A stretch of 64,000 nucleotides of DNA, from NCBI GenBank assembly GCA_023389315.1, contig JAEWEQ010000061.1, positions 3,811-67,810 of the forward strand. The letters are read 5' to 3'. The first letter of the stretch is position 1. Every line of letters starts with the position of its first letter. The position numbers and the translations under genes were made by a program. The stretch comes from Actinomycetes bacterium (GTDB lineage Bacteria > Actinomycetota > Actinomycetes > Actinomycetales > Actinomycetaceae). A model generated the notes under the pieces. The model saw only the letters and a list, made by a program, of their open reading frames with translations, searched no databases and had not been told where the DNA came from. Below are positions 78-7,576 of the stretch, in pieces.

Positions 78-1004
78 TTATGGTCGCTCCAATCCTTCAA
101 GGTAGGAACGCAGGTCGGCTCCCAGCTCAGGGTGCTCCAAGCCGAAGGCAACTTGCGCTTGTAACCATCCCAGCTTATCGCCGGTGTCGAAGCGCCGTCC
201 TTCAATTACCACCCCGTACACGCCACCGCCTTCTTCCCTTGGCACGTCAATCAGGCGCGCGAAGGCGTCGGTGAGCTGGATTTCTCCACCTCGTCCCGGT
301 GGGAGAGTCTCTAGGATCGTCCAGATCGCGGGATCGAAAACATAGCGGCCGACAGTGGCGTATTCGGAGAGGACTTCCGCCAGCGGGGGTTTTTCCACTA
401 CTTTGTCCAGCTGTAGTACGCGCCCCGGTGCCACACTTAGCCCTGTCAACAGTCGCCGGTCCACTTCGCTTACTTCCGCTGAACCGTAAGCAGTCGCTTG
501 TTCGGGAGTGACCTTCAGCAGTGCCACCACCGAGCCGCCCAGGCGCTCGCGCACCTCGATCATAGCTTTCAAGATCGGGTCTTCGGGGTGCATCAGATCA
601 TCGGGAAGGAGCACCGCGAAGGGGTTTTCCCCCACGTGCGGGCGGGCCTGGTAGACCGCATGCCCTAGACCTTTGGGGTGCCCTTGGCGGACGGTGTGAA
701 CGCGCGCCAAGTCGCGGTAGCGGTTGATGGATTCGAGCAGTTTGGTTTTACCGGAAGATTCCAGGGCAGTTTCCAGTTCCGGGCAGGCGTCGAAGTGGTC
801 GTCAACGGCGTGCTTGGAGGCCGACGTTATGATAAGCACATCGTTAAGGTTGGCGTCAGTTGCTTCCTCCACGGTGTATTCGATAGCGGGTTTGTCCACC
901 ACTGGGAGCATTTCTTTGGGGATAGATTTGGTGGCTGGCAGGAAACGGGTGCCGCGCCCAGCGGCGGGAATTACCGCGTGTCGCACCGTTTGGTTTTTGG
1001 TCAT
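78..1004 (-). CDS. galU: UTP--glucose-1-phosphate uridylyltransferase
   Basis: ORF 78..1079 trimmed in frame to the ATG at 1002-1004. The N-terminus MTKNQTVRHAVIPAAGRGTRFLPATKSIPKEMLPV is the GalU-type nucleotide-binding loop. Full-length resemblance to bacterial GalU. Confidence 0.9.
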   Translation of the reverse strand: MTKNQTVRHAVIPAAGRGTRFLPATKSIPKEMLPVVDKPAIEYTVEEATDANLNDVLIITSASKHAVDDHFDACPELETALESSGKTKLLESINRYRDLARVHTVRQGHPKGLGHAVYQARPHVGENPFAVLLPDDLMHPEDPILKAMIEVRERLGGSVVALLKVTPEQATAYGSAEVSEVDRRLLTGLSVAPGRVLQLDKVVEKPPLAEVLSEYATVGRYVFDPAIWTILETLPPGRGGEIQLTDAFARLIDVPREEGGGVYGVVIEGRRFDTGDKLGWLQAQVAFGLEHPELGADLRSYLEGLERP

Positions 1005-1088
1005 GATCCTAAGCCTAGCCCAGAAAGCGTGTGCTACTAAAAGCCCGGGGCGCAGGATTTTCCGCTTCCCACGTGCCACAATGGCCCC

Positions 1089-1685
1089 ATGACCTCGCCC
1101 TCCTCCCCCCTCCCCGCCGCCCCCTCCTCGGGAGCGTCCAAGGCACAGTGGCGCCAGTTTCTGCGCACTTCCATGCGCGAGGACGGTCCCGCCCTCGTCA
1201 GTGAAGTGGCCTTGGCAACGTTCTCGGGTCAGTTGCAGCCCGCGGCGAATGTGGTGTCATTTTGCCCGCTGCCCCATGAACTAAACGTCAGTATTTTCAA
1301 CGCCTTGGCGCGTGAGCGCGCCGCCCGCGTGTGGGTGCCGCTGGGGAATAAGGTGCCAGCGGGGGTGGCGGTCACTGATCTGCCGGTGGGGTTTCGCCCG
1401 CACGGTGAGCCACACGGTTGGCGCCGGGGCGAAGGATTGGGCCAACTGCAACCGGCGCTGGTACTGATACCGGCGCTGGCAGTAGATGGGCGCGGCGTGC
1501 GGCTGGGGCAAGGTGGCGGCTGGTATGACCGGGCGCTGAGTGAGTTGGCCGAGGACGTGCCGGTGGTGGGGTGCGTGCCGCAGTCCCGGTTCTTGCGCAC
1601 TACGGCACTTCCGGTGGAGCCACACGATATCCGGGTGCAGGCGGTGGCCACCGAAACCGGGTATTGGGAACTGCCGCTGGAGTAG
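1089..1685 (+). CDS. 5-formyltetrahydrofolate cyclo-ligase (MTHFS family)
   Basis: The block LVLIPALAVDGRGVRLGQGGGWYDRAL matches the conserved C-terminal motif of the 5-FTHF cyclo-ligase family. The gene is divergent from galU, as in mycobacteria. Confidence 0.8.
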   Translation: MTSPSSPLPAAPSSGASKAQWRQFLRTSMREDGPALVSEVALATFSGQLQPAANVVSFCPLPHELNVSIFNALARERAARVWVPLGNKVPAGVAVTDLPVGFRPHGEPHGWRRGEGLGQLQPALVLIPALAVDGRGVRLGQGGGWYDRALSELAEDVPVVGCVPQSRFLRTTALPVEPHDIRVQAVATETGYWELPLE

Positions 1686-1867
1686 GGGAAACCGCCGGGT
1701 GACCTGCCGGCACCGGCGCACTGCTGCAAAGCGGGCTAGTCGTGCTGCGCTGGTATGCCCCCAGAGCGCGCCACCGGGCTTAACCTACTTTTCCACAGAT
1801 CCTCGCTGTCCACTACCGACAATAGGTGGCCCGGCGCGTACTCGCACAGACCGCGCACACTGAGCGC

Positions 1868-2512
1868 ATGAATGCTTTACCTGACCTGCTCACGCGCCTG
1901 CGCCGCTTCCTCACCCGCCACAGTGTCACGGTCGCCACCGTTGCAGCCTTCGTTACCGCCCTCGCCCTCATTGGAGCGTGGCGGCCCAGCCCATCCACCG
2001 CGGTAGTATCGGTTAACCAACCGCTCACTGCCGGACAGATAATACTCAGCGACGACCTTGAGACCATAGCGTTCACTGGCAAAGTGCCAGACGACGCGGT
2101 GCGCGACCCCGGCGCGGCCGTGGGACAGCGACTGCGCGTGAAAGCACTACCCGGAGTGCCACTGCGAGCCGCCTATTTCTCTAACCTCTCCCAAACCGAA
2201 CCAGGTCGCCAGACCATGCTGTTGGAGGTAGAGCCGGCGCTAGCTGCGGTGTTGGCGCCCGGTGACCGGGTGGACGTATACCAAAATTGTGGCGCCGCCC
2301 CACTAACGCAAGACAGCGCCACCCCTTGCGCAGCCACTGTCCTCGCCCAAGGAGTAGAGGTAATGCAAGTGCAAAAAGACGGAGGATCGCAGTGGACCTC
2401 CCCACATTCGACAAACCTAACTATTAAAGCTGGCGCGGAACAGATTAAGGTTTTAGCCGGTGTGAGTGATACTAGATCACTCACCATCGCAAGAGTTGAA
2501 GACAATGAGTGA
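1868..2512 (+). CDS. SAF/CpaB-N-like domain membrane-anchored protein
   Basis: ORF 1826..2512 with the start moved to the in-frame ATG at 1868. It has an N-terminal TM helix (VTVATVAAFVTALALIGAW) followed by a beta-rich segment (VVSVNQPLTAGQIILSDDLE). This resembles SAF-domain proteins often found upstream of mscL in Actinobacteria. The family call is from memory only. Confidence 0.5.
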   Translation: MNALPDLLTRLRRFLTRHSVTVATVAAFVTALALIGAWRPSPSTAVVSVNQPLTAGQIILSDDLETIAFTGKVPDDAVRDPGAAVGQRLRVKALPGVPLRAAYFSNLSQTEPGRQTMLLEVEPALAAVLAPGDRVDVYQNCGAAPLTQDSATPCAATVLAQGVEVMQVQKDGGSQWTSPHSTNLTIKAGAEQIKVLAGVSDTRSLTIARVEDNE

Positions 2513-2541
2513 CCCTCAGTACCTAAAACCCGGAGGATACC

Positions 2542-2955
2542 TTGATCAAAGGCTTCAAAGAATTCATCTCCCGCGGCAATGCCATCGACCTGGCGGTCGG
2601 CATGGTCATGGGTGCGGCTTTCACCCTGGTGGTCACCTCGCTGGTTGACAAGGTAATCAACCCGCTGATCGGTGGCCTGATCGGTGGAAAGAACTTCGAT
2701 CACGTCATGGAGTTCACCATTGGCAGCGGCGAACAGGCCGCCGTGGTGCAGCCCGGCGCCGTCATCACCGCCGTGGTGAACTTCCTGCTGGTGGCGCTGG
2801 CACTGTACATCTTCGTGGTTACCCCGATGAACGCGTGGGCCAAGCGCACCGCCGTGGAAGAGACCGGACAGGAAGAAGCTCCCGCCGCTGACATCAAGCT
2901 GCTCACTGAGATCCGCGACCTGCTGGCCAAGCAGGACCACACCCCGCAGCTGTAG
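2542..2955 (+). CDS. mscL: large-conductance mechanosensitive channel
   Basis: TTG start at 2542, preceded by GGAGGA at 2532-2537. MIKGFKEFISRGNAIDLAVGMVMGAAF is the canonical MscL N-terminus/TM1. Length is 137 aa. Confidence 0.95.
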   Translation: MIKGFKEFISRGNAIDLAVGMVMGAAFTLVVTSLVDKVINPLIGGLIGGKNFDHVMEFTIGSGEQAAVVQPGAVITAVVNFLLVALALYIFVVTPMNAWAKRTAVEETGQEEAPAADIKLLTEIRDLLAKQDHTPQL

Positions 2956-2979
2956 TTCTCAGCGCATGAACAGACCACC

Positions 2980-3020
2980 GCAAAGGCCCCATGCTTCGGC
3001 ACGGGGCCTTCGCTTATCTG
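2980..3020 (+). terminator. hairpin terminator after mscL
   Basis: Arms GCAAAGGCCCC (2980-2990) and GGGGCCTTCGC (3003-3013) pair with one mismatch. The hairpin lies 25 nt after the mscL stop and is followed by TTATCT. Confidence 0.5.
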
Positions 3021-3023
3021 CGG

Positions 3024-3269
3024 CTACCAGTGCGGGGGGACTTCGGCGCGCAACTGCCGGTCGCGCGCACTCTCCCCTTTCGGTTCAACCTCCGGGCGGG
3101 GATCTACTTCCAGCTGGCGTACCTGGTCCCAAGCGGGCAGCCCACCGCGTTCCACCGCCTCAGCGTCCACCCGCGATAGGCGCACTGCGGCGCGCCGGCG
3201 CCCCCGGGACTTACCTGCGCCCGCCGCCGCCCCGTTCTCCGCCGGGCCGCTCACGGCTGGTGCGCTCAC
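3024..3269 (-). CDS. candidate small protein (81 codons), translationally coupled to upstream giant gene
   Basis: The GTG start at 3267-3269 overlaps the TGA stop (3266-3268) of the 1436-aa gene, a GTGA arrangement. Third-codon positions are mostly G/C. I recognise no homolog. Confidence 0.25.
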   Translation of the reverse strand: MSAPAVSGPAENGAAAGAGKSRGRRRAAVRLSRVDAEAVERGGLPAWDQVRQLEVDPRPEVEPKGESARDRQLRAEVPPHW

Positions 3270-6200
3270 TGTTGCGTGGTGCGGCGCGCTACGTTACGCA
3301 GCACCGCCTCCACCTGCGCACCGCGACGGGTCAAGCCCAGTTCAGTTTGCAACTGTTCCACCATCTGGCTTTCGTTCCGCTCCACCCCATCGGAGCGGAT
3401 CCAGCGGGCCATCTCATCAAGCTGGTCATCACTGTAGGCCGCCAGCGGCAAACCGGTGGCGATCTGCGGGCGAGGCCCGCGCACCTGCCCCGGATCCTGC
3501 CACACGCTCTCCCCGCGCACCTGTACTTCTTCACCGTGAATATCGGTATCACCGACACCGCGCTGCCAGCGCTGCGCTTCGGTCTCCAACGGAGCCGAAC
3601 CGTCCTCGTCCGACTCGCCTGCCTCACCATCGTCACTAGTTAGCGAGGGCGAGGGCGCCGACCCAGCGTCAGTGTCGTCGTCGTTGTCCACGTTCGCGTC
3701 CGTCTCACCGGAATCGGCCTCCCCCTGCGCGGGAGCGTCACTGGCTTCGCCAGCGGCGGGAGCGTCCTCGCTAATGGAATCGTAGTAGCGCTGCTCAATG
3801 GCGGCTGCCAACTGTGGATCCTGGGCGCAGCGTTCATCCACCGCATCCAGCACCAGCTCCACGATGTCGTCAGCTTCCTTCTGCGGGTCGATGAACACCG
3901 CCATGGAAAGCTCGGTGCGGGTCTTCCACCCCAAGGACTCCAACATGGCCGGCCAGTGGCGATCCCGGCGACGCAGGGAAGGTTCGGACACGTACTCGTC
4001 ATTGTCGGTCAAGATCGCCACCAGTAGTTCGCCGGGCAACTCCGGGTGTCCGATGGCCAGCGGGATACGCATGCCACCTTCCACCCCGACGTTGGCGATC
4101 ACGTTCAGGCCGGTGTTGAAAAGCCTGTCCGCCAAGTCGATCAGCAGCTGGTGGGGGCGGGCCTCCGTGGTGGGCCAAGTCCCTGCCGGCGCGTCATGGT
4201 CGTTGGCTTCGGCCTCCGCCAGCAGGTCCAGCAGCATTTGCGGGCCCGTGCCGGTGAAGCGGTCACGATCGAAGTCCCCCGGATGCACGCAAGAAACCAC
4301 CGTGACGTCACCGCGAGCGGTAGCCAATATCTGCGCCAAGATGTCCCCACCCTGGGAGGTAGAGATGGGCCCGAAGTTATGCATCGCGCGCCCGTGCGGG
4401 GTCTTAGCAAAGCCCACCGACAAGATCACGTGGTCGCGTTGGCTGCGGGAAAGCTCTCGGGGGGACACCACCGTGAAGGCCTCTGCCCGGTCAGCGGTGA
4501 AGAACTCCTCCAAGGCTGGGGATTGGTGCACCACGGCCCGCAACTGGTCTTTAATGTGCTGGGCGTGCAGTTCGTTTAGGCACGCCACCGCCAAGGACTC
4601 CTCCGGACGGGTGAGGGCGTGTTCCACCACCAGGTCAACTACCGCTTCAACTTCCGCCACGGTGGACTCCACTGCGGCCGCGCCGGGAGCGGGCATGCCG
4701 CGCCCATCGGCGTAGTGAATCGCCAGTTTGGAGCGCGACCGCGGGGCCGGTACCGCGGCCCCAGCGTGCGCCAGGCGGTAGGTGGAGAACAGGTTCCCGA
4801 TGTAGTCATTGACTCGCATCATGGTGGGAGTGATCTTAAAGGTGGGCAGCACCTGGTTGATGGCGCTGGCGATTTCGTCATCGCTGCCACTGTCGTAGGT
4901 GACTACCACTTGGCGTCCGCGAGCCAGTAGCGGCGCCAACTGGCCCCACAGCAGGGAGTCGGCGCGGTCCACTACCACCAGGTCGAAGCGCTCCCCCACC
5001 GGGGCGATCCGCGGCACCATGGTGGGCACCGTGATGGTGATGGGCAGCAGCTGGCGAACCAGCGGGCAGGAGCGGTAGAAGTCCAGTGCCTCCCCTTGTA
5101 GCGGTCCGCGTTCGGCGACTTGCTGCAGGCGTTGTAGCTTGCCTTGCAGTTTGCGTTCTTCGTCGTAGTGGCGGGCCCGCACGTCAGCCAGTTGGCGGCG
5201 CACCGCGTCGGCGGTGAGGGCGGCCAGGCTTTCCACGTGGGCGGCGTCGAGGGCGCGGAATTCGCGGATCAGTTCTTGCAGTGAGGACGGGTCGAACCCA
5301 CCCAGGCTGGGTTCTTCCGACAGCATTACGCCGAGGGCGGAGGCCCACCACGCCAGGTCTAGTTCCTTTTCCACCAGCGAGGTGGGTACATTGCGTTGAC
5401 GCAGGTCCTTAACCAGGGCGTCTAGCCCGAAACGGTGCAGGGTCTTTAGCACGTCAATGCGTTGGGGCAGGTGGGAGGCGCCCGCGTGGTCGTGGTTGAG
5501 GCGCTCCATGATGCGCGCCAACTCCGCCATGTCGAGCTTCGCCAGGTTCCCGTACGCGGTACCCAGGTGCGGGTTGAGCTTATTGAGGCTCTCTCGCACC
5601 CCTTGGGCGTGCTGGATCATTTCATCTAGGTTGACCGGTAGTTTCGGCCACCCACCGGCCTCGCAATGGCGGCGCCACACTTCGCGCTGTTTTTGGACGG
5701 TGCGCAGCTCTTCGTGTAGGTCCTCTACGTGGCGGCCGGGGCGCACTAGGTCTTTGGCCTGTTTGGTGAGGCGGTTGCGGGTGGCGCGTTTCATCTCCAC
5801 CCCGTTTTCGCGTCGCCACTGCTTCGAAGCGGTGGCGATCACCATGTCCGCGGGGGAACGTTCGAAGATAGCTGGCTGGAACACGTCCAAGGCTTCGCGA
5901 ACGCCCTCGAGCATGTGGAGTTGTTCTTCCCACTGCGCGAAGGTGTGGGCCGGATCCAACCCGGTTTGCCCGGCGGTGGTGGTCATCTGGATACGCAGCT
6001 TTTCCAGGTCAGAAGTAGCCAGCTTCTCCACCTGCGCCACCACCGGCCGCACCTGTTCGGGAGAGGATATCACCACTCCGAACCAGGGGTCTTGCATGCC
6101 CGAGCGGGAGAACATTCCCGCTTCGGACGCCAGTCGCAGCGCGGTCTTGGCTTCATCATCGCGGTCTTGGGAAAGCCGGGTCAAAGTCTGGGCGTTGAAG

Positions 6201-7576
6201 CGAATCTTGGTGCGCGGACCGGGGCGGGCGGTAGTGAGGTCGGTCAGTACCTGCAGTGCGTCGTAGGGGCTAACTCCCCACGGGTCGAAACGCTGGTGCA
6301 GTTTTTCAATGTGTGCCGACAGGGCCTGGCGTACTCGCCGCAGCTGGGTGCGGGTAACTTCAATTTGTTCACGGTCAGAAAACAGCCGGTTATCGTCCAG
6401 CGCCACGCTGACGGCATCCACCAAGCTGGCGTAGGAGCGGCTGGAGCCGTCCAGGCGGGCAGCCAGATGCGCCAGGCCGGCACCCTTGAGTTCTTTCCAC
6501 ACCGGGGTGCAGCGTTCCTTGGTGGAGCCAACGTATAGCACCCGCTTGTGGTTCTTCACAGCATCAGCCATGAGCGAGGCGATGGTGGCCGCCGGATTGG
6601 CTCCCCCACTCACATCTAGAGCCAGGTCGAAACCGTTGGCCACGGCCTCGATTTGATCCAACTGTTCTGGCAGTTGGTTCCCGATGCCGCGTTCGCGCCA
6701 CGGGTCGCGGTCTGCCGGGTCGGGGGCGGGAAGCTCGCGCTCTAGGGTTTTCACCGACTGTTCATCCCCGGCGAAAGCGCGCACCACTTTGGAGGCCAGC
6801 ATGGCGTTGATTTCGTCCAGGTCGGCGATCAGATCTTGCGCGGGGTGCAGGAACTGCCCCGCTTCTACCGTGTCGTTAACGTCGTAAGCGGGATCGATTT
6901 CGCGCAGCAGGCGGCGCACCCGGCCCAGCGCGGAAGCGGGGCTGAAGACCGATCCTTGGCGGGTGCTGTCCACAATGCTTTCTTCATCGAAACTGCGTCC
7001 GGCTTCTTCGAAGATTTGCCGCAGCCCGGGTGCCACCACAATGGCGTTGCCCAGTTGCACGAAGATGTCATCGCCGCGTTCGGTGAAGCGGATTTCGCGC
7101 AGCAGCACCGGGGTGATGGCGTTATCGGGCCCGGGGCCGTTGATGACGGTGCCGATCGCCAGGTGGGTGTCAGCGGCTTCCCCCGCGGTGGAAGACTGCA
7201 GGTGTTCCATCAGGGAGCGGGCGGTTTCGTGGGCGCGCACGCAAGCACGCGGTTCGCGCACCAGGGAGGTGAGCAGGGTGGGGCGCTGGGCGTAGAGCTG
7301 GGCGGTGCCGCCAGGGTGGGCGTAGGTCAGGTCCAGCCGGGGACAGTGTTCAGCGTCGAGGGCGGCGTCAGTGTATTCGCGTAGCTGATCGCGCCAGCGT
7401 CGAATGGTGGCAGTGAGTTGGTTTTCGGTGGCCGCATCGGTGCCACTTTGGGTGCTGGTAGCACCGGGGTCGGCGGCTGCCTGCGGGGTCGCTTTGGCGC
7501 CCTCGGCGGCGGAGTCGTCACGAGGCTGCTTTGAACGGGAGAAAAAACCTGATACCACGTTCACCAGCGTAGCCAC
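3266..7576 (-). CDS. DUF4011 / SF1 helicase-like (AAA_11-AAA_12) / REase-like / DUF3320-like giant protein, catalytic motifs apparently degenerate
   Basis: 1436-aa uninterrupted ORF with a GTG start. The block order matches the Upf1/DNA2-like SF1 family. FDLVVVDRADSL sits at motif II. SQRDHVILSVGFAKTPHGRAMHNFGPISTSQGGDILAQILATARGDVTVVS sits at motifs V-VI. LLVAILTDNDEYVSEPSLRRRDRHWPAMLESLGWKT resembles the MTES_1575-type nuclease core. The C-terminal LPLAAYSDDQLDEMARWIRSDGVERNESQMVEQLQTELGLTRRG resembles DUF3320. Confidence 0.7.
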   Translation of the reverse strand: MATLVNVVSGFFSRSKQPRDDSAAEGAKATPQAAADPGATSTQSGTDAATENQLTATIRRWRDQLREYTDAALDAEHCPRLDLTYAHPGGTAQLYAQRPTLLTSLVREPRACVRAHETARSLMEHLQSSTAGEAADTHLAIGTVINGPGPDNAITPVLLREIRFTERGDDIFVQLGNAIVVAPGLRQIFEEAGRSFDEESIVDSTRQGSVFSPASALGRVRRLLREIDPAYDVNDTVEAGQFLHPAQDLIADLDEINAMLASKVVRAFAGDEQSVKTLERELPAPDPADRDPWRERGIGNQLPEQLDQIEAVANGFDLALDVSGGANPAATIASLMADAVKNHKRVLYVGSTKERCTPVWKELKGAGLAHLAARLDGSSRSYASLVDAVSVALDDNRLFSDREQIEVTRTQLRRVRQALSAHIEKLHQRFDPWGVSPYDALQVLTDLTTARPGPRTKIRFNAQTLTRLSQDRDDEAKTALRLASEAGMFSRSGMQDPWFGVVISSPEQVRPVVAQVEKLATSDLEKLRIQMTTTAGQTGLDPAHTFAQWEEQLHMLEGVREALDVFQPAIFERSPADMVIATASKQWRRENGVEMKRATRNRLTKQAKDLVRPGRHVEDLHEELRTVQKQREVWRRHCEAGGWPKLPVNLDEMIQHAQGVRESLNKLNPHLGTAYGNLAKLDMAELARIMERLNHDHAGASHLPQRIDVLKTLHRFGLDALVKDLRQRNVPTSLVEKELDLAWWASALGVMLSEEPSLGGFDPSSLQELIREFRALDAAHVESLAALTADAVRRQLADVRARHYDEERKLQGKLQRLQQVAERGPLQGEALDFYRSCPLVRQLLPITITVPTMVPRIAPVGERFDLVVVDRADSLLWGQLAPLLARGRQVVVTYDSGSDDEIASAINQVLPTFKITPTMMRVNDYIGNLFSTYRLAHAGAAVPAPRSRSKLAIHYADGRGMPAPGAAAVESTVAEVEAVVDLVVEHALTRPEESLAVACLNELHAQHIKDQLRAVVHQSPALEEFFTADRAEAFTVVSPRELSRSQRDHVILSVGFAKTPHGRAMHNFGPISTSQGGDILAQILATARGDVTVVSCVHPGDFDRDRFTGTGPQMLLDLLAEAEANDHDAPAGTWPTTEARPHQLLIDLADRLFNTGLNVIANVGVEGGMRIPLAIGHPELPGELLVAILTDNDEYVSEPSLRRRDRHWPAMLESLGWKTRTELSMAVFIDPQKEADDIVELVLDAVDERCAQDPQLAAAIEQRYYDSISEDAPAAGEASDAPAQGEADSGETDANVDNDDDTDAGSAPSPSLTSDDGEAGESDEDGSAPLETEAQRWQRGVGDTDIHGEEVQVRGESVWQDPGQVRGPRPQIATGLPLAAYSDDQLDEMARWIRSDGVERNESQMVEQLQTELGLTRRGAQVEAVLRNVARRTTQQ

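What the first reader, a model, noticed from the sequence alone, without database searches (positions are those of the whole stretch)
3266..7576. Giant SF1 helicase/nuclease-family protein in which every catalytic motif I can place looks substituted
The block order matches DUF4011 - AAA_11/AAA_12 (Upf1/DNA2-like SF1) - MTES_1575-type REase - DUF3320 proteins, but the catalytic positions read differently by eye. The Walker A slot is DVSGGANPAATIASL (nt 6578-6613), where GPPGTGKS/T is expected. Motif II is FDLVVVDRADSL, where DEASQ is expected. Motif III is VVVTYDSGSDD, where GDxKQLPP is expected. Motif VI is GGDILAQILATARG, where GERRLNVAxTRAR is expected. The nuclease core is RIPLAIGHP...AILTDNDEYV rather than a D...ExDG core. 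The non-catalytic scaffold, including the DUF3320-like tail, is well kept. An acidic D/E/S/G linker (about nt 3640-3790) is inserted. The gene sits in a core mscL/icd context, not in an island. This looks like a conserved pseudo-enzyme (scaffold or sensor) derived from a family often linked to defence or repair.
Basis: partly seen in the sequence, partly recalled or inferred. Interest (0 to 1): 0.7.

Follow-up and report, generated by a model that had tools for sequence, protein, structure and literature searches.

The report
Conserved dead helicase-nuclease with micro-protein partner
This 1,436-residue actinobacterial protein keeps the full fold of a helicase-nuclease but has lost every catalytic residue, yet it is kept under strong selection beside mscL across many families of one order, next to a small partner gene that nobody had annotated.

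Summary
ORF 3266-7576 (-) aligns over about 80% of its length with orthologues from Intrasporangium and Terrabacter that have canonical motifs. At each aligned slot the catalytic residues are replaced: Walker A, Walker B, motifs III, IV, V and VI, and the nuclease D...ExD core.

All 45 closest database homologues and all 77 readable genome loci share this state. They span Actinomycetaceae, Cellulomonadaceae, Promicromonosporaceae, Georgenia, Occultella and others.

An AlphaFold model (pLDDT 90) keeps the Upf1-like SF1B fold and a Vsr-like nuclease fold. dN/dS is 0.08 overall and 0.012 in the former nuclease domain, which has gained its own near-invariant motif (IPLAIGHP...LTDD). The gene lies beside mscL in 61 of 66 loci, and the active orthologue occupies the same position. 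It is therefore a core gene, not an island gene.

New findings:
- An overlapping 81-codon downstream ORF (3024-3269) ends in ...RDRQLRAEVPPHW. In active orthologues this tail is the helicase's own C-terminus.
- The wider family shows graded decay. The ATPase was lost first and the nuclease later.

The DUF3320 label for the tail is not supported by any HMM. The biological role is unknown. My best inference is a non-catalytic scaffold that works with the small tail protein.

The parts
3266..7576 (-). Large ORF of 1436 aa (probable true start GTG at 7558): catalytically dead DUF4011 / SF1B-helicase / Vsr-like-nuclease homologue, pI 5.1
6677..7426 (-). N-terminal DUF4011-like domain (aa 51-300). 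It keeps the invariant AHPGG motif (nt 7307-7321) but has lost the GGRNTLL motif of active orthologues.
   Evidence: Alignment; DUF4011 HMM hits 19 of 35 clade members but not the query itself
6572..6616 (-). Walker A (motif I) slot: DVSGGANPAATIASL in place of KGPPGTGKSQTIANL. Still strand-loop-helix in the model.
5057..6316 (-). Helical insert of about 420 aa between motifs I and II (aa 421-840), with the WGVSxYDALQ and ELDLAWWAS motifs shared with active orthologues. dN/dS 0.034. Matches the ProA and Hhe profiles.
4952..4987 (-). Walker B (motif II) slot: FDLVVVDRADSL in place of FDVVIFDEASQV
4877..4909 (-). Motif III slot: VVVTYDSGSDD in place of VVVAGDERQLPP
4310..4450 (-). Domain 2A. Motif V slot SRSQRDHVILS (in place of VQGDERDAIILS), the conserved GFAKTPHGRxxHxFG loop, and motif VI slot GGDILAQILATARG (in place of GGERRLNVAITRAR, so the arginine finger is lost).
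3857..4135 (-). MTES_1575 (Vsr-like REase) domain, aa 1148-1240. Catalytic D changed to P (RIPLAIGHP, nt 4043-4069) and E changed to L (AILTDN, nt 3989-4018). It is the most constrained part of the protein (dN/dS 0.012), with pI 4.5.
3572..3778 (-). Acidic D/E/S/G-rich disordered linker (aa 1267-1335), within a wider linker of net charge -25
   Evidence: dN/dS 0.32; pLDDT about 50
3269..3454 (-). C-terminal three-helix domain (aa 1375-1436; pLDDT >95). It occupies the position of the wHTH/DUF3320 domains of MTES_1575-type proteins, but no HMM detects it.
   Evidence: PMC3710099
3024..3269 (-). Small ORF of 81 aa (pI 9.9) whose GTG start overlaps the large ORF's stop (CAGTGAGC). It has a basic patch (RGRRRAAVRLSR) and the C-terminal motif SARDRQLRAEVPPHW. 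It is homologous to the C-terminal tail of active orthologues.

Best explanation
**What it is.** The gene encodes a non-catalytic descendant of a chromosomal helicase-nuclease. The parent architecture was a DUF4011 N-terminal domain, a Upf1-like SF1B helicase, and a Vsr-like (MTES_1575) nuclease.

**Shown here.**
- It is the positional orthologue of motif-complete enzymes in Dermatophilaceae/Intrasporangiaceae.
- Every residue needed to bind or hydrolyse ATP (motifs I, II, III, VI), the helicase motifs IV and V, and both metal-binding acidic residues of the nuclease are replaced. This holds across a clade covering many families.
- The two-RecA-domain fold, the roughly 420-residue helical insert and the nuclease fold are all kept.
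- The protein is under strong purifying selection, strongest on the former nuclease domain, which carries a new near-invariant sequence (IPLAIGHP...LTDD...RxRDR).
- The adjacent small basic ORF is the detached C-terminal tail of the ancestral protein (basic patch, then a D-x-D-x-G-W-G element present in most family members but only vestigial in this window's ORF, where AWD takes the place of GWG, then ...RLxRDVPPHW).

**Inferred.**
- The protein neither hydrolyses ATP nor cuts DNA. It acts as a rigid binding platform.
- The remodelled, now acidic, former nuclease domain is the main interaction surface.
- The micro-protein, made by translational coupling, reassembles with the large protein. Its PPHW end tethers the complex to a cellular partner that is not yet identified.
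- Whether the final ligand is protein or nucleic acid is open. The acidic shift of the former DNA-binding domains makes protein more likely.
For: - **Homology and split.** In one search, hits P0001-P0045 carry only PF18741. Most hits from P0046 onward carry DUF4011 + AAA_11 + AAA_12 + MTES_1575 at about 30% identity over about 80% of the query.
- **Motif tables.** (77 of 77 readable genome loci are degenerate; 29 active against 113 degenerate sequences).
- **Walker A.** No Walker A anywhere in the protein.
- **Fold.** pLDDT 90.2, pTM 0.77. Foldseek finds Aquarius, IGHMBP2, Upf1, Sen1, Dna2 and nsp13 at probability 1.0. The PDB profile search aligns the P-loop slot to GPPGTGKT of IGHMBP2. The nuclease domain matches Vsr-like folds 3r3p and 3hrl with TM 0.70-0.75.
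- **Selection.** dN/dS 0.076 at dS 0.84; nuclease domain 0.012, domain 2A 0.033, insert 0.034.
- **Tree.** One split separates the all-dead clade from the active sequences.
- **Synteny.** mscL is adjacent in 61 of 66 loci. The neighbourhood is the same around the active I. calvum gene and the degenerate genes.
- **Small ORF.** Found downstream or fused in 58 of 72 loci, and in 4 more on re-inspection. Its tail is homologous to the C-termini of active proteins. dN/dS is 0.08-0.21. There are 931 unannotated relatives.
- **Charge.** The nuclease domain shifts from about 0 to -7 (query -11), domain 1A-N from +1 to -4, and domain 2A from -3 to -7.
- **Graded decay.** Among the 150 best representatives, many keep PPGTGxTQ without the lysine yet keep an intact nuclease core. 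Examples are Arthrobacter and Brachybacterium.
Against: - There is no biochemical evidence. Loss of activity is inferred from sequence and a predicted structure.
- No binding partner was identified, and the interaction between the small ORF and the large protein was not modelled (no multimer prediction was available).
- The small ORF is missing within 6 kb in the Schaalia/Pauljensenia-like loci, so it cannot be universally required.
- The new conserved His/Asp constellation in the former nuclease domain could in principle be a different active site.
- The helicase nucleic-acid groove could still bind ssDNA or RNA.
Confidence: 0.72

Rival explanations
1. RecC-like reader. The dead SF1B core still threads single-stranded DNA or RNA through the retained 1A/2A/1B groove and recognises a sequence or structure without using ATP. 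The rest of the protein is an adaptor.
For: The helicase fold, the insert and the motif Va-like TPHGRxxHxFG loop are all retained and constrained. RecC is an established precedent for a dead helicase plus dead nuclease used as a DNA reader (my own knowledge of RecBCD structures).
Against: The motif Ia, IV and V slots that contact nucleic acid in Upf1-like helicases are poorly conserved in the clade. Net charge of domains 1A-N and 2A and of the nuclease domain moves towards acidic. Whole-protein pI is 5.1.
Confidence: 0.2
2. Cryptic enzyme. The protein is still catalytic through non-canonical residues, for example a remodelled His/Asp site in the Vsr-like domain or an unusual nucleotide pocket.
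For: The former nuclease site carries a near-invariant new constellation (P, GHP, LTDD, RxRDR) and has the lowest dN/dS in the protein (0.012). Vsr itself uses His residues (my own knowledge).
Against: Both canonical metal ligands (the beta-2 Asp and beta-3 Glu) are replaced by Pro and Leu. The second Asp of LTDD is Asn in the query and in several lineages. The P-loop slot is variable across the clade (20-80% column conservation) and no arginine finger remains.
Confidence: 0.06
3. Defence-system component. It is a non-catalytic sensor, decoy or regulator of an anti-phage system related to Hhe, ProA or PDC-S37.
For: The closest named profiles are anti-phage proteins: ProA at 238 bits, PDC-S37 at 242 bits, Hhe at 130 bits. 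In the literature searched, DUF4011 appears mainly in anti-phage-defence and mobile-element papers.
Against: Scores are far below the family cut-offs (1500 and 2000). The chromosomal position beside mscL is fixed in 61 of 66 loci across families. No defence island or effector partner is seen in the operon, and the phylogeny fits vertical inheritance.
Confidence: 0.08
4. Decaying relic. The gene is a pseudogene in slow decay with no function.
For: All catalytic motifs are lost, and branches in the degenerate clade are long.
Against: Intact ORFs of 1300-1700 aa occur in more than 100 species. dN/dS is 0.076 with dS 0.84. New invariant motifs have appeared. The predicted fold has high confidence.
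Confidence: 0.01

Closest known systems
Motif-complete chromosomal orthologues in Dermatophilaceae/Intrasporangiaceae (e.g. Intrasporangium calvum P0052, annotated 'AAA domain-containing protein' or 'DNA helicase')
   Same: Same locus next to mscL/SAF/5-FTHF cyclo-ligase. Same domain order (DUF4011, SF1B with a large helical insert, MTES_1575). About 30% identity over about 80% of the length. Same PPH[WY] tail sequence.
   Different: They keep GPPGTGKS, DEASQ, GDERQLPP, RRLNVAITRAR and the ID...ETDG core. The tail is fused to the protein rather than a separate ORF. Most lack the three-helix C-terminal domain.
Anti-phage single-protein helicase-nucleases Hhe, ProA and PDC-S37 (NCBIfam NF042953, NF058533; PADLOC PDLC02194, PDLC05009)
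   Same: Shared ancestry of the helical insert, domain 2A and the Vsr-like nuclease.
   Different: Scores are 5- to 15-fold below the family cut-offs. There are no catalytic motifs. The gene is a core chromosomal gene rather than island-borne. The N-terminus and tail do not match those profiles.
MTES_1575-type proteins of Anantharaman et al. 2013 (SF-I helicase + novel Vsr REase + 2 wHTH overlapping DUF3320; PMC3710099)
   Same: The REase domain passes the Pfam threshold. It is followed by a helical domain of about 65 aa in the position of the wHTH/DUF3320 domains.
   Different: No HEPN or transglutaminase domains. The REase catalytic residues are lost. The tail domain is not recognised by the DUF3320 HMM.
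RecC of RecBCD (dead SF1 helicase plus dead nuclease-like domain used as the Chi reader and scaffold)
   Same: Same principle: helicase and nuclease folds kept without catalytic motifs and used non-enzymatically (my own knowledge).
   Different: Not homologous at family level (SF1A UvrD-like against SF1B Upf1-like). No RecB or RecD partners lie in the operon. The partner here is an 81-aa tail protein.
Other described pseudohelicases (yeast Utp25, PMC9539457; Deinococcus radiodurans PriA, PMC4504706)
   Same: Helicase fold with degenerate ATPase motifs, retained for a non-unwinding role.
   Different: They belong to different superfamilies (SF2). Neither combines a dead helicase with a dead nuclease and a split tail.

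Membership tests
Upf1-like SF1B helicases (Pfam AAA_11/AAA_12) | Two RecA-like domains with the Upf1/IGHMBP2/Dna2-type fold | tested here: met
   AlphaFold model pLDDT 90.2. Foldseek hits Aquarius, IGHMBP2, Upf1, Sen1 and Dna2 at probability 1.0, E 1e-8 to 1e-5.
Upf1-like SF1B helicases (Pfam AAA_11/AAA_12) | Walker A GxxxxGK[ST] | tested here: not met
   The slot reads SGGANPAA. There is no GK[ST] anywhere in the protein. It is absent from all 45 close homologues at the aligned slot.
Upf1-like SF1B helicases (Pfam AAA_11/AAA_12) | Walker B DExx, motif III GDxxQLPP, motif VI arginine finger | tested here: not met
   DRADS, YDSGSDDE and GGDILAQILATARG at the aligned slots. The same loss is seen in 77 readable genome loci.
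Upf1-like SF1B helicases (Pfam AAA_11/AAA_12) | Significant match to the AAA_11 or AAA_12 HMMs | tested here: not met
   No hit at E <= 10 for the whole protein or its segments. Of the 35 sequences scanned, AAA_11 and AAA_12 each matched only one, presumably the single motif-complete sequence, P0046.
REase_MTES_1575 (PF18741, Vsr-like restriction endonuclease fold) | HMM match above the gathering threshold | tested here: met
   48.2 bits against 38.2, aa 1148-1240. 35 of 35 clade members match.
REase_MTES_1575 (PF18741, Vsr-like restriction endonuclease fold) | Catalytic acidic residues (beta-2 Asp; beta-3 Glu-x-Asp) | tested here: not met
   ID changed to IP and ETDG changed to LTDN or LTDD in the whole clade.
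REase_MTES_1575 (PF18741, Vsr-like restriction endonuclease fold) | Vsr/PD-(D/E)xK-like fold | tested here: met
   Model pLDDT >90 for the domain. The best structural matches are I-Bth0305I (3r3p, TM 0.70) and NGO0050 (3hrl, TM 0.75), although E-values are weak at 0.03-0.2.
DUF4011 (PF13195) | HMM match in the N-terminal region | tested here: inconclusive
   No hit in the query. However, 19 of 35 clade members hit (best E 2e-6), and the region aligns with DUF4011-bearing orthologues through the invariant AHPGG block. The GGRNTLL motif of the active forms is lost.
DUF3320 (PF11784) / wHTH tail | HMM match in the C-terminal tail | tested here: not met
   No Pfam or NCBIfam hit for the tail at E <= 10. 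DUF3320 is not among the families shown for 35 members, nor in the precomputed Pfam lists. Only position, size and helical content agree.
Hhe / ProA / PDC-S37 anti-phage proteins | Score above the curated equivalog cut-off | tested here: not met
   ProA 238.5 bits against 1500. Hhe 130.2 bits against 2000.
Hhe / ProA / PDC-S37 anti-phage proteins | Variable, island-like genomic context | tested here: not met
   mscL is adjacent in 61 of 66 loci. The galU / 5-FTHF-CL / SAF / mscL neighbourhood is conserved.
Hhe / ProA / PDC-S37 anti-phage proteins | Protection against phage | not testable with these tools
   Requires phage challenge of deletion or expression strains.
Pseudoenzyme (conserved, catalytically inert homologue of an enzyme) | Loss of catalytic residues together with purifying selection and a retained fold | tested here: met
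Pseudoenzyme (conserved, catalytically inert homologue of an enzyme) | Measured absence of activity | not testable with these tools
   Requires ATPase, helicase and nuclease assays on purified protein.

The most novel reading that the evidence does not exclude
An anti-phage-type helicase-nuclease was taken over for a housekeeping role across a large part of the order. It lost first its ATPase and then its nuclease, while keeping its N-terminal domain, helical insert and a C-terminal ...RLxRDVPPHW peptide. That peptide, now often made as a separate translationally coupled micro-protein, would be a previously unrecognised docking motif that links the dead enzyme to a core actinobacterial machine. 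The remodelled former nuclease site (IPLAIGHP/LTDD) would be a new ligand-binding pocket.
Probability: 0.3. Interest if true: 0.72.

Novelty: new variant of a known kind. Interest (0 to 1): 0.58.

Why it matters
- **A natural series.** Positional orthologues at one locus form a clean series: fully active, then ATPase-dead with the nuclease intact, then fully dead. This is rare material for studying how large nucleic-acid enzymes become non-enzymatic proteins.
- **A conserved unknown.** The gene is large and conserved in Actinomycetaceae (which include human-associated Actinomyces, Schaalia, Gleimia and Mobiluncus) and in Cellulomonas-like bacteria, yet it has no known role.
- **Misleading annotation.** Current labels include 'prevent-host-death family protein', 'DNA helicase' and 'AAA family ATPase'.
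- **An unannotated partner.** The PPHW-tailed micro-protein family has 931 unannotated relatives and gives an experimental handle for finding the interaction partner.
- **A caution for defence prediction.** Weak homology to Hhe, ProA or PDC-S37 profiles should not be read as evidence of a defence function.

Tried and rejected
- **Pfam on the query.** Scans of the whole protein and of N-terminal, middle and tail segments at E <= 10 gave only MTES_1575. Direct domain calls for DUF4011, AAA_11/12 and DUF3320 therefore fail, and homology had to be shown through intermediate sequences.
- **NCBIfam on the tail and N-terminus.** No hits, so the DUF3320 label could not be confirmed.
- **Catalytic motifs elsewhere in the protein.** None found. 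The few [AG]xxxxGK[ST] matches in relatives (AAAVNGKS, ALAADGKS) align about 16 residues after the P-loop, where some active proteins have ALAAEGKS in addition to their real P-loop.
- **Pseudogene reading.** Rejected by dN/dS.
- **Defence-island reading.** Rejected by synteny.
- **Antisense ORF 2966-3643 (+), 225 aa.** Treated as spurious. It has no family hit and overlaps the conserved tail domain and the small ORF on the other strand.
- **Promoter and terminator scan.** Nothing informative.
- **Literature.** Searches for ProA, Hhe mechanism, DUF4011 and MTES_1575 found nothing on actinobacterial core homologues or on dead members.
- **Small-ORF profile search.** It found only unannotated small proteins and no other protein family carrying the tail among the 120 listed.
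- **Limits of the tools.** Model coordinates are not exposed, so pocket geometry and surface charge could not be inspected. No multimer prediction was possible.
Full report
**1. What is at the coordinates**

The window holds one long ORF at 3266-7576 on the minus strand: 1436 codons with a GTG start. Close homologues begin at VVSGFF, which points to the GTG at 7558 as the real start.

Pfam finds only REase_MTES_1575 (aa 1148-1240, 48.2 bits against a cut-off of 38.2). No AAA_11, AAA_12, DUF4011 or DUF3320 hit appears, even at E <= 10 on separate segments.

NCBIfam and PADLOC give partial, far sub-threshold matches to anti-phage helicase-nucleases:
- ProA, 238 bits against a cut-off of 1500.
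- Hhe, 130 bits against a cut-off of 2000.
- PDC-S37, 242 bits.

Run on segments, the helical middle part and the 2A/nuclease part both match ProA and Hhe. The N-terminus and the tail do not.

**2. Homologues fall into two classes**

A search of 5.8 billion proteins returned 344 relatives.
- The 45 closest (99% down to 32% identity) come from Actinomycetaceae, Gleimia, Cellulomonas, Cellulosimicrobium, Luteimicrobium, Bogoriella and Georgenia. Where any Pfam domain is on record for them, it is PF18741, apart from a DUF4011 hit in two.
- The listed hits from P0046 onward come from Intrasporangium, Terrabacter, Phycicoccus, Pedococcus, Nostocoides and Humibacillus, at about 30% identity over about 80% of the query. 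Most of them carry DUF4011 + AAA_11 + AAA_12 + AAA_30 + AAA_19 + MTES_1575.

None of the first 45 has a P-loop at the aligned slot. Five contain a formal [AG]xxxxGK[ST] match, but it aligns about 16 residues after the P-loop, at a position where some active proteins also read ALAAEGKS. P0046 and nearly all hits from P0048 onward have GPPGTGKS.

**3.

In a 75-sequence MAFFT alignment the query strings fall exactly in the catalytic slots of the active orthologues.

| Slot | Query | Active orthologue |
|---|---|---|
| Motif I | DVSGGANPAATIASL | KGPPGTGKSQTIANL |
| Motif II | FDLVVVDRADSL | FDVVIFDEASQV |
| Motif III | VVVTYDSGSDDE | VVVAGDERQLPP |
| Motif IV | MRVNDYIG | HYRSRDERLI |
| Motif V | SRSQRDHVILS | VQGDERDAIILS |
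| Motif VI | GGDILAQILATARG | GGERRLNVAITRAR |
| Nuclease | RIPLAIGHP...AILTDN | RIDLAIEDP...AVETDG |

A profile search of PDB sequences independently aligns the P-loop slot with GPPGTGKT of IGHMBP2, and also hits Upf1 and Dna2.

One scan of one genome per species found 586 relatives. I extracted the large ORF from the best 80 loci. In three of them (L050, L060, L082) my script picked the wrong ORF, so 77 were readable. All 77 are degenerate at every slot. They add Schaalia, Pauljensenia, Actinomyces, Trueperella, Varibaculum, Mobiluncus, Actinotalea, Oerskovia, Promicromonospora, Isoptericola, Myceligenerans, Occultella, Sanguibacter, Flavimobilis and Beutenbergiaceae.

**4. The fold is kept**

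An AlphaFold2 model of aa 60-1259, built from 64 homologues, has mean pLDDT 90.2 and pTM 0.77.
- The Walker A slot is still strand, loop, helix.
- The motif II and III slots still follow beta strands.
- Foldseek against the PDB returns Aquarius, IGHMBP2, Sen1/SETX, Upf1, Dna2 and nsp13 at probability 1.0. These are the Upf1-like SF1B helicases.

A second model of aa 1140-1436 shows three parts:
- A confident nuclease-like domain. Its best structural matches are the Vsr-like I-Bth0305I domain (3r3p, TM 0.70) and the DUF559-like NGO0050 (3hrl, TM 0.75). The E-values are weak.
- A disordered acidic linker (pLDDT about 50).
- A confident three-helix C-terminal domain (pLDDT >95).

**5. It is under selection, and not where one would expect**

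Codon alignments with the 88%- and 80%-identical homologues give dN/dS of 0.076 (dS 0.84) and 0.081.

| Region | dN/dS (88%-identical homologue) |
|---|---|
| Former nuclease domain | 0.012 |
| Domain 2A | 0.033 |
| 420-residue helical insert | 0.034 |
| Acidic linker | 0.32 |

Across 113 degenerate and 29 active sequences, the former helicase motif slots are poorly conserved in the degenerate clade. The P-loop consensus there is DAPPGSDVAG, with 20-90% column identity.

The former nuclease site has instead acquired its own near-invariant sequence: R-I-P-L-A-I-G-H-P ... L-V-A-V-L-T-D-D ... R-x-R-D-R.

The former nucleic-acid-binding domains also become more acidic:
- Nuclease domain: net charge about 0 to -7 (query -11).
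- Domain 1A-N: +1 to -4.
- Domain 2A: -3 to -7.

The whole protein has pI 5.1.

**6. It is a core gene and a positional orthologue of the active enzymes**

The window order is galU-like, 5-FTHF cyclo-ligase, SAF/RcpC protein, mscL, then the large gene on the other strand, then icd.

The same order (large gene, small ORF, then mscL, SAF and 5-FTHF cyclo-ligase on the opposite strand) surrounds the degenerate genes of Bogoriella, Cellulomonas, Gleimia and two close relatives. It also surrounds the motif-complete gene of Intrasporangium calvum.

Among loci with at least 2.5 kb downstream, 61 of 66 have mscL next to the gene. A neighbour-joining tree on 1226 columns shows one split between the all-dead clade and the active sequences. 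P0047, which is partly decayed, sits as sister to the active sequences.

**7.

Directly after the large ORF lies an 81-codon ORF at 3024-3269 (-). Its GTG overlaps the stop codon (CAGTGAGC). It has a basic patch (RGRRRAAVRLSR) and ends in SARDRQLRAEVPPHW. Its pI is 9.9.

- An ORF with the same tail lies downstream of, or is fused in frame to, the large gene in 58 of 72 loci. Four more were found on re-inspection.
- It is absent within 6 kb only in the Schaalia/Pauljensenia-like group.
- In the active orthologues the same sequence is the C-terminus of the helicase itself: RRRRRVFRKG ... DDTDxGWGE ... RDxWLxEQRPPH[YW].
- The window's own ORF keeps the basic patch and the PPHW end, but the acidic GWG block is only vestigial (AWD).
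- The small ORF is under purifying selection (dN/dS 0.08-0.21 over 58 codons).
- It belongs to a family of at least 931 small proteins. None of the 120 listed has a Pfam domain, and apart from one UniRef label ('Transcriptional regulator') none has an informative name.

**8. The wider family shows graded decay**

An exhaustive HMMER search of 1.84 billion representatives found 7009 relatives, 819 of them at E <= 1e-30. Among the 125 near-full-length sequences (>1100 aa) in the top 150:
- Only about a dozen are fully canonical.
- Many keep PPGTGxTQ with the lysine replaced, have lost DE, and keep an intact ID...E[ST]DG nuclease core and the PPHW tail.
- The query's clade has lost everything.

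Named examples of the middle state are Arthrobacter (annotated 'AAA family ATPase'), a Dermatophilaceae MAG and Brachybacterium. The most persistent features of the family are the N-terminal AHPGG domain, the helical insert, the 2A scaffold and the PPHW tail. The catalytic centres are not among them.

**9. Interpretation**

Shown:
- Homology to active enzymes.
- Complete, clade-wide loss of catalytic residues.
- Fold retention and purifying selection.
- Orthologous core position.
- A detached, conserved tail ORF.

Inferred:
- The protein is a non-catalytic binding platform.
- The remodelled acidic former nuclease domain is the key surface.
- The basic, PPHW-ended micro-protein reassembles with it and links it to an unknown partner.

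The main mechanistic rival is an ATP-independent nucleic-acid reader of the RecC type. Cryptic catalysis, a defence role and pseudogene status are less likely or excluded.

**10. Comparison with what is known**

By descent, the protein belongs to the DUF4011 / Upf1-like SF1B / MTES_1575 Vsr-REase lineage. Anantharaman et al. 2013 described that REase and noted wHTH domains overlapping DUF3320 after it (PMC3710099).

It fails the defining catalytic features of both enzyme families, and it fails the thresholds and context expected of Hhe and ProA. In function it resembles known pseudohelicases such as RecC, Utp25 and D. radiodurans PriA.

I found no paper describing this actinobacterial clade, its decay series or the tail protein.

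**11.

- The Walker A slot is at nt 6572-6616.
- The acidic linker is at nt 3572-3778. It is a variable disordered linker, not a clade-specific insertion.
- 'DUF3320-like tail' is unconfirmed. No HMM hit was found in the query, and DUF3320 is not among the families shown for 35 relatives. Position, size and helical content are compatible with a wHTH/DUF3320-type domain.

Noticed in passing
window 3024-3269 (-): Unannotated 81-codon ORF overlapping the stop of the large gene. It has a basic patch and a conserved C-terminal ...RDRQLRAEVPPHW. It is homologous to the C-terminal tail of active orthologues and belongs to a family of at least 931 small proteins; none of the 120 listed has a Pfam domain.
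   Followed up: yes
window 7558-7576 (-): The listed GTG start at 7576 is probably 6 codons too far upstream. Close homologues all begin at VVSGFFSRS, which corresponds to the GTG at 7558. An N-terminal FFSR peptide is conserved in Actinomycetaceae members (consensus MxxxFFSR in alignment A4).
   Followed up: partly
window 2966-3643 (+): A 225-aa ORF runs antisense to the tail domain and the small ORF. It has no family hit and a proline/arginine-rich composition typical of an antisense frame in high-GC DNA. It is most likely not a gene.
   Followed up: partly
P0047 (JGI metagenome); P0307 (Arthrobacter), P0322 (Dermatophilaceae MAG), P0303 (Brachybacterium): Intermediate family members have lost the Walker A lysine and Walker B DE (e.g. 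PPGTGATQ or PPGTGQTQ) but keep an intact nuclease ID...E[ST]DG core. Some are annotated 'AAA family ATPase' although they lack the catalytic lysine.
   Followed up: partly
P0004, P0007, P0010, P0012, P0013, P0019, P0030: Many clade members are named 'prevent-host-death family protein' in NCBI and UniRef. No Phd-like domain was detected here in the query or in any relative, so the name looks like a propagated misannotation.
   Followed up: partly
L009-L014, L025, L039 (labelled Schaalia, Pauljensenia, uncultured Actinomyces MAGs, a 'Trueperella pyogenes' MAG and 'Xylanimonas cellulosilytica'): These loci keep the dead large gene next to mscL but have no PPHW-tailed ORF within 6 kb. Their large proteins end in acidic tails instead. 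In L054 the small ORF lies upstream of the large gene.
   Followed up: partly
window 78-2955 and L002-L004, L085, L086: A conserved actinobacterial neighbourhood surrounds the gene: galU-like, 5-FTHF cyclo-ligase, SAF/RcpC protein and mscL, with moeA, an acetyltransferase and in one locus GlpR nearby, and a Zn-ribbon protein in Bogoriella. The large gene appears to have been inserted between mscL and a variable upstream region (icd only in the window's closest relatives and Gleimia).
   Followed up: partly
L004 4773-5480 (Gleimia europaea): A GmrSD_C-domain gene, a type IV restriction-like defence domain, sits between icd and the Usp gene. This is the only defence-type gene seen near any of the loci.
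   Followed up: no
L001 2023-2594 (Intrasporangium calvum): A PhdYeFM antitoxin / ParE toxin pair lies about 5.4 kb upstream of the active orthologue. This is probably coincidental and unrelated to the 'prevent-host-death' misnaming.
   Followed up: no
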